Below are positions 25,126 through 28,337 of a DNA stretch of 64,000 bases, piece after piece; within the stretch, counting starts at the first letter, position 1, and the number at the start of each line of letters is the position of its first letter. The stretch lies in NCBI RefSeq assembly GCF_041886205.1, contig NZ_CP169029.1. The stretch is one strand, 5' to 3'. The stretch comes from Escherichia coli (GTDB taxonomy: Bacteria > Pseudomonadota > Gammaproteobacteria > Enterobacterales > Enterobacteriaceae). The notes beneath the pieces are model-generated. The model was not told the DNA's origin. It ran no database searches and was given only the letters and a program-made list of their open reading frames with translations. The position numbers and the translations under genes are program-made.

Positions 25126-25602
25126 ATGAAACTCATCAGTAACGATCTGCGCGATGGCGATAAATTGCCGCATCGTCATGTCTTTAACGGCATGGGTTAC
25201 GATGGCGATAATATTTCACCGCATCTGGCGTGGGATGATGTTCCTGCGGGAACGAAAAGTTTTGTTGTCACCTGCTACGACCCGGATGCGCCAACCGGCT
25301 CCGGCTGGTGGCACTGGGTAGTTGTTAACTTACCCGCTGATACCCGCGTATTACCGCAAGGGTTTGGCTCTGGTCTGGTAGCAATGCCAGACGGCGTTTT
25401 GCAGACGCGTACCGACTTTGGTAAAACCGGGTACGATGGCGCAGCACCGCCGAAAGGCGAAACTCATCGCTACATTTTTACCGTTCACGCGCTGGATATA
25501 GAACGTATTGATGTCGATGAAGGTGCCAGCGGCGCGATGGTCGGGTTTAACGTTCATTTCCACTCTCTGGCAAGCGCCTCGATTACTGCGATGTTTAGTT
25601 AA
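25126..25602 (+). CDS. ybhB: PEBP-family protein YbhB
   Basis: 158 aa; last chromosomal gene before the prophage attR. Confidence 0.85.
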   Translation: MKLISNDLRDGDKLPHRHVFNGMGYDGDNISPHLAWDDVPAGTKSFVVTCYDPDAPTGSGWWHWVVVNLPADTRVLPQGFGSGLVAMPDGVLQTRTDFGKTGYDGAAPPKGETHRYIFTVHALDIERIDVDEGASGAMVGFNVHFHSLASASITAMFS

Positions 25603-25692
25603 TCACTCTGCCAGATGGCGCAATGCCATCTGGTATCACTTAAAGGTATTAAAAACAACTTTTTGTCTTTTTACCTTCCCGTTTCGCTCAAG

Positions 25693-25707
25693 TTAGTATA
25701 AAAAAGC
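25693..25707. other. prophage attR core (lambda att common core, P-O-B' arrangement)
   Basis: TTAGTATAAAAAAGC (reverse complement of GCTTTTTTATACTAA) flanked by the bacterial B' arm (CTTGAGCG) on one side and a lambda-like P arm on the other. Confidence 0.85.
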
Positions 25708-25852
25708 TGAACGCGAAACATTAAAAACCATTAATATCAATGTGTTACAATATCTTTAGTCTAAAAAATAGACTACATGATGCTACAAAACACAACATAT
25801 CCAGTCACTATGAATCAACTACTTAGATAGTATTAGTGACCTGAGACAGAGC

Positions 25853-25894
25853 ATTAGCGCAAGGTGATTTTTGTCTTCTTGCGCTAATTTTTTG
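25853..25894 (+). terminator. intrinsic terminator, probably the tI/sib-equivalent of the int transcript
   Basis: perfect 11 bp stem (ATTAGCGCAAG/CTTGCGCTAAT) followed by a T-run, about 150 bp beyond the att core on the P-arm side. Confidence 0.5.
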
Positions 25895-26055
25895 TTATCA
25901 AACATGTCGCACTCCAGAGAAGCACAAAGCCTTGCAATCCAGTGCAAAGATTTGTGTGCCTCAGTTTTGTCTAAGTGTTCTACTGAAAACATAGTAAAAT
26001 CGGCAACAGCTGGAAATCATTCAATACTCGCACTATCGAAAGTTCACCAGCCAAC

Positions 26056-26095
26056 CGCAGCACGTTCTTGCATACGACGTGCTGCGGTTTTCTTT
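26056..26095 (+). terminator. intrinsic terminator hairpin
   Basis: CCGCAGCACGT...ACGTGCTGCGG stem followed by TTTTCTTT. Confidence 0.5.
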
Positions 26096-26246
26096 ATGAT
26101 TTATGCACAATGGACAATTTGAAATTATTGATGATTGTATGGTGCATCGTTTTCTGAACCTACACTGATTTTTTGGTATAGCCTTGCCTAGCCAGTCTTA
26201 CCGGATCAAACTCTTCGCTATTGCAATACTAACCAAAATCATCAAT

Positions 26247-26276
26247 TTGACAGCGATTAACCAGAATAATAGTATA
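26247..26276 (+). promoter_or_regulatory. candidate sigma70 promoter for the GGDEF gene
   Basis: consensus -35 TTGACA, 17 bp spacer, -10-like TAGTAT, about 75 bp upstream of the start codon. Confidence 0.4.
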
Positions 26277-26347
26277 CTATCACCAGTAAGAAATTATCGT
26301 TATTTGTAGCGATACATATTATATATATATCATTCTCAGGTGCGTAC

Positions 26348-27679
26348 ATGATTATCAACCAGGTACCTATAAAAATAAAAATCTTCATCTTTTTATTTTC
26401 ATGCATCTCTATTATATTTTTGTTACTGCATGAAAATAATGGAATATACATAACACAAACAACACAAATAAGTTATAGTGTTTTCATTATTGGGCTTTTT
26501 TTCATAAACCTGATGATTTTTATTTTTCTATTGCTTTACTATGTTTCTAATCAGAGACAAAGTTATCTCTTAATTCTTTCATTCGCGTTTTTGAGCAACA
26601 CGTATTATTTATTAGAAGTGGCTATTATTTCTTTATCTCCGTTAGGTAACGATTTATCTACAATCTATCAGAAATCAAATGATATCGCAATATATTATCT
26701 ATTCCGTCAGCTCAGCTTTATATCTATAATCTTTCTGGCTGTTTATTCCACCAATGTTAAAAATAAAAGTGTTTTAGAAGATAAAAGAAACATAATAATT
26801 GTTGTTTTGTCAATATTAATTCTTTTTATTACTCCGTTTGTAGCAAAAAATCTAAGCAGTGACAATATAAAATATAGTCTTAATATTATACAATACTCGC
26901 TGAATCGTCATTTGCCGACGTGGAATATCGTGTACACCAAAATAATATCAGTATTTTGGCTTGTATTACTTATCAGCTCATGCATCAGCATACGTAATTA
27001 CTCAAAAATATGGTTGTGTATAATACTTATTAGTATAGTGTCAGTATGCAATAATCTAATTTTATTGTATTTTATTGATAAATCCCATCCTGCATGGTAC
27101 ATGACAAAATTTCTTGAGTTGATATCAATGATTTATATCATTTCAACACTCATGTATTATGTTTTCAGGAAATTAAATCATGCTAATCATATGGCAATTC
27201 ATGATCCACTAACGAATACATACAATAGAAGATACTTTATTGACTCATTGAAGAATATATCAAAACACCATGATTTCTCAGTAATAATGTTAGATATTGA
27301 CAGTTTCAAAAGCATCAATGACAAATGGGGGCATCATATGGGTGATCAAGTCATAGTAATGGTTACCAGAATAATAAAAAAATCCATCAGGAAAGAGGAT
27401 ATATTAGGGCGCTTAGGCGGTGAGGAGTTCGGTATTATCATTAAAGGTAATACTCAAAAGCTCTTGCTATCAATTGCAGAGCGAATCAGAAAAAACATTG
27501 AAGAGCAATGCTCGGAAAAATTATTATCGCATGGACCTGAGAAAATAACTGTCAGTATTGGTTGCTTTACTTCAAAAGAGAATAATCTCAGCCCATCTGA
27601 AATGTTAGTCAATGCCGATAAAGCGTTATATCAAGCCAAAAGAACCGGAAAAAACAAGGTGATAATTCACTCAAAATAA
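26348..27679 (+). CDS. dgcX: membrane-anchored diguanylate cyclase (GGDEF domain), DgcX-like prophage cargo gene
   Basis: 443 aa; about 270 aa very hydrophobic multi-TM N-terminus, C-terminal GGDEF domain with active-site GGEEF and an RKED (RxxD) I-site five residues upstream; strongly AT-rich; symbol assigned from memory of a DGC reported at this locus. Confidence 0.8.
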   Translation: MIINQVPIKIKIFIFLFSCISIIFLLLHENNGIYITQTTQISYSVFIIGLFFINLMIFIFLLLYYVSNQRQSYLLILSFAFLSNTYYLLEVAIISLSPLGNDLSTIYQKSNDIAIYYLFRQLSFISIIFLAVYSTNVKNKSVLEDKRNIIIVVLSILILFITPFVAKNLSSDNIKYSLNIIQYSLNRHLPTWNIVYTKIISVFWLVLLISSCISIRNYSKIWLCIILISIVSVCNNLILLYFIDKSHPAWYMTKFLELISMIYIISTLMYYVFRKLNHANHMAIHDPLTNTYNRRYFIDSLKNISKHHDFSVIMLDIDSFKSINDKWGHHMGDQVIVMVTRIIKKSIRKEDILGRLGGEEFGIIIKGNTQKLLLSIAERIRKNIEEQCSEKLLSHGPEKITVSIGCFTSKENNLSPSEMLVNADKALYQAKRTGKNKVIIHSK

Positions 27680-27708
27680 ACACCTTTTTAAAATACAGCC
27701 CCAATAAA

Positions 27709-27741
27709 CTGCAGAATATTATCCCATATAATATCCTGCAG
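27709..27741. terminator. bidirectional hairpin between the convergent GGDEF and tfa genes
   Basis: near-perfect 14 bp inverted repeat CTGCAGAATATTAT...ATAATATCCTGCAG. Confidence 0.5.
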
Positions 27742-27752
27742 TTCGTAATGCA

Positions 27753-28337
27753 CTATTCGATAATGGGTACTGTTGGCCATTCAATATCCGGTGCAGTTGT
27801 TGTATTAACACGGTTCAGCAACACCCGATATTTTTTCCAGGCTTCCAGCAATGAGGTTTCTTCCTCCGTTGCGATCTCCAGATCTACAGCATCCTGAAGT
27901 GGCGCTATATGCTCACTGGCTACCTGCATCAGGCTGTTTTTTGTTTCTTCCGCCTCCCGGATCCGGAACAGTTTTTCTGCTTCCGTATCCTTCACCCAGG
28001 CTGTGCCGTTCCACTTCTGATATTCCCCTTCCGGCGATAACCAGGTGACATTTTCCGGTAACGAGCCAAGTTCAGAAATAAATAACGCGTCGCCGGAAGC
28101 CACGTCATAGACGGTTTTTCCCCGATGATCTTCAACGAGATGCCACGATGCCTCATCACTGTTGAAAACAGCCACAAAGCCAGCCGGAATATCTGGCGGT
28201 GCAATATCGGTACTGTTTGCTGGCAGACCTGTATGAGGCGGAATATATGCGTCACCTTCACCAATAAATTCATTAGTTCCGGCCAGCAGATTATAAATTT
28301 TTATGGTCCGTGGTTGTTCACTCATTCTGAATGCCAT
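27753..28337 (-). CDS. tfa: tail fibre assembly protein Tfa (lambda-like)
   Basis: 194 aa, recognisably lambda Tfa. Confidence 0.85.

What the first reader, a model, noticed from the sequence alone, without database searches (positions are those of the whole stretch)
26348..27679. Prophage-borne membrane-anchored diguanylate cyclase (DgcX-like) as cargo between tfa and attR
A 443 aa ORF with a large multi-TM N-terminus and a complete GGDEF domain (GGEEF active site, RxxD I-site) sits in the lambda b-region slot, transcribed opposite to the tail genes. It is markedly AT-rich relative to its flanks and has a near-consensus sigma70 promoter (TTGACA-17-TAGTAT). This puts a c-di-GMP synthase on a locked-in prophage; the N-terminal membrane domain has no obvious known sensor fold and its signal is unknown. 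From memory, a highly expressed DGC called DgcX was reported at the lambda attB locus in enteroaggregative/O104:H4-type E. coli; this looks like that gene or a close relative.
Basis: partly seen in the sequence, partly recalled or inferred. Interest (0 to 1): 0.7.

Follow-up and report, generated by a model that had tools for sequence, protein, structure and literature searches.

The report
Known prophage-borne diguanylate cyclase DgcX

Summary
There is a 443-aa ORF at 26348-27679 (+) with 29.9% GC against 50.3% for the window. It has an eight-helix membrane N-terminus and a complete GGDEF domain (GGEEF 357-361, RxxD 348-351). It lies between tfa and the attR core, inside an att-bounded ~20 kb lambdoid remnant.

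The protein matches E24377A at 441/443 residues and EAEC 55989 at 437/443, and the DNA is 99.3% identical to O104:H4. Richter et al. 2014 named the gene in exactly these strains.

One point needs correcting. The N-terminal domain is not unclassified. It is Pfam MASE4 (E 1.3e-35), shared with K-12 DgcT and CdgI, although its signal is unknown and no solved structure exists.

The gene is common: 770 of 5,426 complete E. coli genomes carry it, 592 of them in this same attB arrangement.

Small additions from this work:
- The cargo segment is about 26098-27764.
- It stays linked to tfa at three different integration sites.
- The phage attP arm and sib site separate it from host DNA, which fits a phage moron better than the specialized transduction proposed in 2014.
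- No deposited phage genome carries it.

Novelty: already known. Interest is low.

The parts
25693..25707 (-). attR core (lambda att core GCTTTTTTATACTAA), next to ybhB/bioA
   Evidence: Exact match; 2 matches in the window against 0.11 expected by chance. ybhB ends at 25602.
25846..25895 (+). sib retroregulation site / tI of the phage backbone (P-arm side of attP)
   Evidence: Window 25689-25895 is 98% identical to HK97, and the segment ends on HK97's annotated 'sib retroregulation site'.
26053..26088 (+). Backbone stem-loop followed by a T-run; the last element shared with HK97/HK106 before homology ends at 26097
   Evidence: RNA fold gives -24.0 kcal/mol for 26045-26105. HK106 homology covers 25689-26097 at 93.4%. 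The hairpin travels with dgcX in other contexts, where shared DNA starts at 25986.
26098..27764 (+). AT-rich cargo segment (30.7% GC) holding the promoter region, dgcX and the inter-stop hairpin; it supplies the last 4 codons and the stop of tfa
   Evidence: Left limit is the end of HK106/HK97 homology. Right limit is the start of lambda-type tfa homology at query position 206-216, i.e. window 27765-27775. GC.
26247..26275 (+). Sigma-70-like promoter candidate TTGACA-17-TAGTAT
   Evidence: 10/12 match. Identical in the window, E24377A, TOK-001 and EC50, with 55989 differing only by one base just upstream of the -35. In the 94% allele the -35 is degraded to TTAATA and the spacer is 1 bp longer. 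The start site has not been mapped.
26348..27679 (+). dgcX coding sequence, 443 aa (RefSeq WP_001685800.1)
26369..27187 (+). MASE4 membrane domain, eight predicted TM helices (residues 8-280) with a beta-hairpin at residues 181-192
   Evidence: Pfam PF17158, E 1.3e-35. AlphaFold2 model with pLDDT 81.8 and pTM 0.84. Hydropathy peaks.
27194..27658 (+). GGDEF catalytic domain (residues 283-437); RxxD I-site at 27389-27400, GGEEF at 27416-27430
   Evidence: PF00990, E 5e-44. TIGR00254 scores 161.9 bits against a cutoff of 37.4. PleD alignment.
27707..27743 (.). Inverted repeat between the convergent dgcX and tfa stop codons
   Evidence: Fold energy is -15.8 kcal/mol on the + strand (no U-run follows) and -22.1 kcal/mol on the - strand. 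Not called by the terminator scan.
27753..28337 (-). tfa (tail fibre assembly), the constant neighbour of dgcX
   Evidence: tfa or a tfa remnant ends 74 bp after the dgcX stop at attB, at the Rac/uspF site and at the argW site.
44490..45560 (+). Intact tyrosine integrase of the remnant (xis lies just upstream)
   Evidence: 356-aa ORF. Annotated as integrase, with an adjacent excisionase, in the near-identical strain wlxctx60.
45634..45648 (-). attL core, next to ybhC
   Evidence: Exact core match. ybhC is at 45695..46978.

Best explanation
The ORF is dgcX, a horizontally acquired inner-membrane diguanylate cyclase. Its eight-helix MASE4 domain anchors the protein in the membrane and presumably gates it. 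The cytoplasmic GGDEF domain condenses two GTP into c-di-GMP, and product feedback acts through the RxxD I-site. The gene has its own promoter and sits as a moron-type cargo segment (about 26098-27764) in the b-region slot of a lambdoid prophage, between tfa and the phage sib/attP arm. Here the prophage has decayed to a ~20 kb remnant at lambda attB, so the gene is now effectively a fixed host gene. Its expected effect is a higher c-di-GMP supply, leading to more cellulose/curli-type matrix and less motility. Shown here: identity, domain architecture, intact catalytic residues, position inside the att sites, prevalence. Taken from the literature: strong sigma70/sigmaS-dependent expression, and GGEEF-dependent cellulose and motility phenotypes. 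Inferred: gating by MASE4, the actual transcription start, and activity in this particular strain.
For: Identity: 441/443 to E24377A and 437/443 to 55989, with the same ybhB-dgcX-tfa order. Richter 2014 names dgcX in these strains, describes the A-site, the I-site and a ~270-aa 8-TM N-terminus, and reports the highest expression of any E. coli DGC gene. Domains: GGDEF and MASE4. Catalytic residues aligned to PleD are all present: D316, N324, D333, R348xxD351, R355, G357GEEF361, R379, K431, and K435 in place of an Arg. The six differences from the 55989 protein (L122F, P190S, I194T, K245Q, S319N, I440T) avoid these positions. Function: PMC10459773 shows that overexpression induces cellulose, and that this is lost in the GGEAF and GGAAF mutants. 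Cargo status: exact att cores at 25693 and 45634 bracket the gene, the phage P-arm and sib lie between it and ybhB, GC is 30%, and tfa linkage is conserved at three integration sites.
Against: No enzymatic or expression data exist for this strain or this exact allele. The promoter call rests on a consensus match in AT-rich DNA, where such matches are not enriched, and the -35 is not conserved in the 94% allele. DNA with 30% GC is a typical target for H-NS silencing. Deleting dgcX in strain Fec101 had only a minor effect on the rdar morphotype, so the contribution in a given strain may be small. No deposited phage genome carries the gene, so transfer by phage is inferred rather than seen.
Confidence: 0.93

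Rival explanations
1. dgcX was a chromosomal gene next to attB that lambdoid phages picked up by aberrant excision (specialized transduction), as Richter et al. 2014 suggested, rather than being internal phage cargo.
For: The suggestion is in PMC4287979. Of 770 carrier genomes, 592 have the gene at attB.
Against: The gene lies inside the att cores. About 390 bp of phage attP P-arm, sib and a backbone hairpin, 93-98% identical to HK106/HK97, separate it from bacterial DNA. A bio-side transducing event would instead leave bacterial DNA next to the gene. At the Rac/uspF and argW sites the constant neighbour is tfa, not ybhB.
Confidence: 0.07
2. The protein is a catalytically inactive c-di-GMP receptor or scaffold, like its paralogue CdgI/YeaI.
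For: CdgI has the same MASE4-GGDEF architecture at 37% identity and binds c-di-GMP through an intact I-site (PMC5635695).
Against: [quoted passage not shown] The reported phenotypes depend on the GGEEF motif.
Confidence: 0.02
3. In this strain the gene is silent cargo, for example H-NS-silenced AT-rich DNA in a dead prophage, with no physiological role.
For: GC is 30%. The prophage is heavily decayed. The Fec101 deletion phenotype is minor.
Against: The ORF is intact, as it is in 766 of 770 carrier genomes at >=80% coverage, and the divergent allele keeps 94% protein identity (98% positives) with all motifs. That pattern points to purifying selection. A single-copy lacZ fusion from the outbreak strain gave the highest expression of any DGC gene in a K-12 background. 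The promoter region here differs from the 55989 sequence at only two positions, neither within a hexamer.
Confidence: 0.08
4. The prophage carries dgcX mainly as a superinfection-exclusion or anti-phage function, for example a matrix that shields receptors or loss of flagella.
For: The position next to the tail-fibre genes is typical of lysogenic-conversion and exclusion morons (general knowledge). c-di-GMP changes surface structures.
Against: There is no hit to any PADLOC defence model. [quoted passage not shown] No direct data exist.
Confidence: 0.05

Closest known systems
DgcX of EAEC/STEC O104:H4, EAEC 55989, ETEC E24377A and H10407 (Richter et al. 2014, EMBO Mol Med, PMC4287979)
   Same: Same gene. 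Protein identity is 98.6-99.5% and DNA identity 99.3%. It has the same attB locus, the same orientation against tfa, and the same GGEEF, RxxD and 8-TM N-terminus.
   Different: The allele is WP_001685800.1, with six substitutions relative to 55989, none at a catalytic position. The host appears to be a commensal-type strain; the closest genome, wlxctx60, came from bear faeces. The adjacent prophage is a 20 kb mosaic remnant, not the near-complete prophage of 55989.
DgcT (YcdT) and CdgI (YeaI) of E. coli K-12, the other MASE4-GGDEF proteins
   Same: Same two-domain architecture, with 35% and 37% full-length identity. The shared invariant MASE4 residues include N111, D112, R120, W192, W204, W222, W250 and E257.
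   Different: These are core-genome genes with 38.5% GC. The literature reports them as CsrA-repressed and weakly expressed. Their leaders contain GGA motifs, while the 75 nt before the dgcX ATG contain none. [quoted passage not shown]
PleD / WspR-type GGDEF cyclases with an RxxD I-site
   Same: The catalytic domain is alignable over ~170 residues (E 2.6e-24 to PleD), with the metal, guanine, phosphate and I-site residues conserved.
   Different: The input is an integral-membrane MASE4 domain rather than receiver domains. No structure of this input domain is known.
Lambda b-region / lambdoid morons (e.g. lom, bor, the 'ea' genes)
   Same: An autonomous AT-rich gene with its own promoter candidate, inserted between tfa and sib/attP and transcribed in the same direction as int and the lambda 'ea' genes.
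   Different: It was not found in any of 50,697 deposited phage records. No canonical terminator follows it on the coding strand.

Membership tests
GGDEF diguanylate cyclase (PF00990 / TIGR00254) | Significant match to the family profile over the whole domain | tested here: met
   PF00990 E 5e-44, model positions 1-161 of 161. TIGR00254 scores 161.9 bits against a cutoff of 37.4.
GGDEF diguanylate cyclase (PF00990 / TIGR00254) | Intact GG(D/E)EF A-site plus the metal-, guanine- and phosphate-binding residues (PleD D327, N335, D344, R366, E370, E371, K442, R446) | tested here: met
   D316, N324, D333, R355, E359, E360 and K431 are conserved. K435 replaces R446, a conservative change.
GGDEF diguanylate cyclase (PF00990 / TIGR00254) | RxxD inhibitory site five residues upstream of the A-site | tested here: met
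   R348-K-E-D351, then ILGRL, then GGEEF. R379 aligns with the secondary I-site Arg of PleD.
GGDEF diguanylate cyclase (PF00990 / TIGR00254) | Synthesis of c-di-GMP from GTP | not testable with these tools
   Only indirect evidence exists: GGEEF-dependent cellulose and motility phenotypes for the Fec101 allele in PMC10459773.
DgcX orthologue group | Near-identity to the protein of the strains in which DgcX was defined | tested here: met
   441/443 to E24377A and 437/443 to 55989. 99.3% DNA identity to O104:H4.
DgcX orthologue group | Location directly beside lambdoid prophage DNA, usually at attB between ybhB and ybhC | tested here: met
   Order is bioA-ybhB-attR-dgcX-tfa ... int-attL-ybhC. 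The same junction occurs in 592 genomes.
DgcX orthologue group | Very high sigma70/sigmaS-dependent expression | not testable with these tools
   Reported for the outbreak-strain allele. Here there is only a 10/12 promoter match with an upstream region nearly identical to 55989.
MASE4 membrane sensor domain (PF17158) | Profile match over the full domain, multi-pass membrane topology, N-terminal to a GGDEF domain | tested here: met
   E 1.3e-35, model positions 4-237 of 239. The model has eight helices. All significant AFDB50 neighbours are MASE4/GGDEF proteins of Enterobacterales.
Phage moron | Lies inside the phage genome between backbone genes, with deviant base composition | tested here: met
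   Inside the att cores, between tfa and sib, and 30.7% GC.
Phage moron | Own promoter and own terminator | tested here: inconclusive
   There is a promoter candidate. The hairpin at 27707-27743 has no U-run on the coding strand.
Phage moron | Present in genomes of functional, packaged phages | tested here: not met
   None of 50,697 phage records carries it: only the attP/sib part matches at DNA level, and tblastn finds only GGDEF-domain hits of <=38% identity. The 55989 prophage is near-complete, but its terminase is frameshifted.
GPCR-like 7TM fold (considered for MASE4; not adopted) | Significant structural similarity to solved 7TM receptors | tested here: inconclusive

The most novel reading that the evidence does not exclude
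Probability: 0.12. Interest if true: 0.5.

Novelty: already known. Interest (0 to 1): 0.15.

Why it matters
DgcX is regarded as a biofilm- and virulence-associated addition to the c-di-GMP network of EAEC/O104:H4-type strains. This instance adds no new biology. It does show that the gene is widespread: 14% of complete E. coli genomes carry it, including apparently commensal strains from animals. It also shows that the gene is internal prophage cargo tied to tfa, rather than a chromosomal neighbour of attB. The open question, what MASE4 senses, is the same for DgcX, DgcT and CdgI and is not answered here.

Tried and rejected
1. Deposited phage genomes. A DNA search and a tblastn search of 50,697 phage records found only attP/sib or tfa homology and distant GGDEF-only hits. 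There is therefore no direct evidence that dgcX is packaged.

2. Anti-phage defence. PADLOC returned no hit, and the literature shows that c-di-GMP favours N4 infection.

3. NCBIfam. Only the generic GGDEF domain model passes its cutoff, and there is no equivalog. PHROGs matches cover only the GGDEF domain, in families of unknown function.

4. Regulatory RNA in the leader. There was only a sub-threshold CssrB match (44 bits against 76) over the backbone hairpin, which I treat as chance.

5. Promoter enrichment. The number of promoter-like sites is not above shuffles. The -35 is not conserved in the 94% allele.

7. A distant AT-rich donor. Full-length relatives fall off from 85% to 51% identity within Escherichia, then Citrobacter at ~42%, then the DgcT/CdgI level. 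No donor outside the Enterobacterales was seen.

8. Source strain. I first took the window to be strain wlxctx60. It is nearly identical but carries an extra IS3-family insertion.

Full report
**Observation**

An AGGTG Shine-Dalgarno sequence lies five bases upstream. The base composition drops to 27-29% GC across it. The CDS is 29.9% GC, against 50.3% for the window, 52.4% for ybhB and 47.9% for tfa.

Pfam finds a full-length GGDEF domain (residues 283-437, E 5e-44). It also finds a full-length MASE4 membrane domain (residues 40-274, E 1.3e-35).

The TTGACA-17-TAGTAT site exists at 26247-26275 and is the best promoter-like site in the region. However, such sites are no more frequent here than in shuffled sequence (14 against 12.3 +/- 2.7), so the match alone is weak evidence.

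**Context**

The left flank is bioA and ybhB, and the right flank is ybhC. The exact 15-bp lambda att core occurs twice, at 25693-25707 and 45634-45648, against 0.11 matches expected by chance.

- The core next to ybhC is preceded by intact xis and int, so it is attL.
- The core next to ybhB is attR.
- Window 25689-25895 is 98% identical to HK97 and ends on HK97's annotated sib retroregulation site.
- Window 25689-26097 is 93% identical to HK106 and ends just after a strong stem-loop at 26053-26088 (-24 kcal/mol).
- On the other side, homology to lambda-type tfa begins at about 27765, four codons before the tfa stop.

The AT-rich cargo segment is therefore about 26098-27764. It sits in the b-region slot and is transcribed in the same direction as int and convergent with tfa. 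In HK97 and HK106, which lack dgcX, tfa lies only about 120 bp beyond the same hairpin.

**State of the prophage**

The att-bounded element is only about 20 kb. By comparison with the annotation of the near-identical strain wlxctx60, it contains:

- tfa, an stf fragment, a frameshifted lom and a truncated J;
- Rac-type trkG and ynaK;
- a DLP12-type block (lysis genes, an ompC/nmpC-like porin, quuD, rusA, ybcO, ninE, ybcN, emrE);
- ren, a frameshifted P and a truncated O;
- intact xis and int.

There is no immunity region and there are no head genes. It cannot make phage, so "locked-in" is fair in that sense. The recombination sites and enzymes for excision nevertheless look intact.

**Identity**

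The protein is 441/443 identical to that of ETEC E24377A and 437/443 identical to that of EAEC 55989. The DNA is 99.3% identical to O104:H4 FDAARGOS_348. In both E24377A and 55989 the gene sits at the same distance from ybhB and tfa.

Richter et al. 2014 (PMC4287979) defined dgcX in exactly these strains. They described the following:

- the GGEEF A-site, the RxxD I-site and a ~270-aa, eight-helix N-terminal domain shared with YcdT and YeaI;
- the location at attB next to lambdoid prophages;
- expression higher than any other E. coli DGC gene, from both sigma70 and sigmaS RNA polymerase.

A 2023 study (PMC10459773) calls the protein MASE4-GGDEF. It shows that overexpression induces cellulose, and that this effect is lost in the GGEAF and GGAAF mutants. 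A deletion in strain Fec101 had only a minor effect.

**Catalytic competence**

Alignment to PleD shows the following positions conserved:

- the metal ligand D316;
- the guanine contacts N324 and D333;
- R355;
- G357-G-E-E-F361;
- the I-site R348xxD351 and the secondary Arg R379;
- K431.

K435 stands in for an Arg, which is a conservative change. The six differences from the 55989 protein (L122F, P190S, I194T, K245Q, S319N, I440T) avoid these positions. Position 319 is variable across the family. The refutation criterion is not met.

**The N-terminal domain**

It is not unclassified. It is MASE4, and the protein is 35% identical to K-12 DgcT and 37% identical to CdgI over the full length.

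The family is very narrow. Only 29 representatives (50%-identity clusters) out of 1.84 billion proteins match the domain at E <= 0.001. All significant AFDB50 structural neighbours are MASE4/GGDEF proteins of Enterobacterales.

An AlphaFold2 model built from 21 diverse sequences is confident (pLDDT 81.8, pTM 0.84). It has eight helices and a beta-hairpin in the TM5-TM6 loop, in agreement with Richter's eight helices rather than the six reported by SMART in the 2023 paper.

Assuming a cytoplasmic GGDEF domain, most of the conserved polar residues (N111, D112, E257, S170, S171, Y43, Y251) fall in the periplasm-facing halves and loops. R120 does not; it falls in a cytoplasmic half.

**How the gene moves**

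Richter et al. proposed hitch-hiking by specialized transduction. The anatomy here argues against that. The gene is inside the att cores, and phage attP-arm and sib DNA separate it from the host.

The constant neighbour elsewhere is tfa, not ybhB:

- At the Rac/uspF site (strain EC50) the upstream neighbour is sitABCD.
- At the argW-dsdC site (ETEC1721, a 94% protein allele) it is a hydrolase gene.
- In both, tfa or a tfa remnant ends 74 bp after the dgcX stop, and the shared DNA starts at window 25986.

This fits a moron that moves between lambdoid prophages by recombination in the flanking backbone. Against a simple phage-cargo picture, none of 50,697 deposited phage records carries the gene.

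**Prevalence**

Of 5,426 complete E. coli genomes, 770 (14%) carry the CDS: 623 at >=99% identity, 60 at 95-99% and 86 at 90-95%. Of these, 592 have the contiguous ybhB-attR-sib-dgcX junction seen here.

**Expression**

The promoter hexamers are identical in the window, E24377A, TOK-001 and EC50. The 55989 sequence differs by one base just upstream of the -35. The 94% allele has a degraded -35 and a spacer 1 bp longer.

The 75 nt before the ATG contain no GGA motif, unlike the leaders of dgcT and cdgI, which the literature reports as CsrA-repressed. This is consistent with the reported high expression, but it is only a reading of the sequence.

**Verdict**

The gene is already known and common, so interest is low. 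The modest additions are the precise cargo boundaries, the moron-versus-transduction argument, the prevalence figures, and a confident eight-helix model of MASE4.

Noticed in passing
window 39900-41206: A ~1.3 kb IS3-family element is inserted in ybcN of the prophage remnant. Its transposase is split into three ORFs (39952-40278, 40275-40664, 40675-41166). It is absent from the otherwise near-identical strain wlxctx60 (6 mismatches in ~20 kb of alignment), so the window comes from a close relative rather than that strain.
   Followed up: partly
window 27796-27994 (-): A full-length match to Rfam family IS009 (RF02111) scores 225 bits against a gathering score of 117. It lies inside the 3' half of tfa, about 120 bp from the dgcX stop. 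It was not examined further.
   Followed up: partly
window 25693-45648: The att-bounded element is a mosaic. It combines lambda-type tfa, stf, lom and J fragments, Rac-type trkG and ynaK, a DLP12-type block (essD, rrrD, rzpD, nmpC/ompC-like porin, quuD, rusA, ybcO, ninE, ybcN, emrE) and a lambda-type int/xis/ea8.5 end. It therefore carries several other host-useful cargo genes (a K+ transporter, a porin and an SMR efflux pump) besides dgcX.
   Followed up: partly
L010 (E. coli EC50) 2096-7332: At the Rac/uspF site the dgcX segment lies directly downstream of the sitABCD iron/manganese transporter genes, so two accessory cargo modules are stacked at the tfa end of that prophage.
   Followed up: no
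P0024: One E. coli protein of 403 aa combines DUF1722/YbgA-type domains (PF04463, PF08349) with a GGDEF part that is 97% identical to the C-terminal quarter of DgcX. It is probably a deletion fusion within a prophage; TOK-001 has a ybgA-family gene in its attB prophage.
   Followed up: no
window 25819-25992 (-) and 25871-26122 (+): Small ORFs of 57 and 83 aa overlap the sib region and the backbone hairpin between attR and dgcX. They are not annotated in RefSeq or in the HK97/HK106 records, and they are probably non-coding.
   Followed up: no
E. coli genome collection: Three of the 775 dgcX places are on plasmids, and some genomes carry two copies. Their contexts were not inspected.
   Followed up: no
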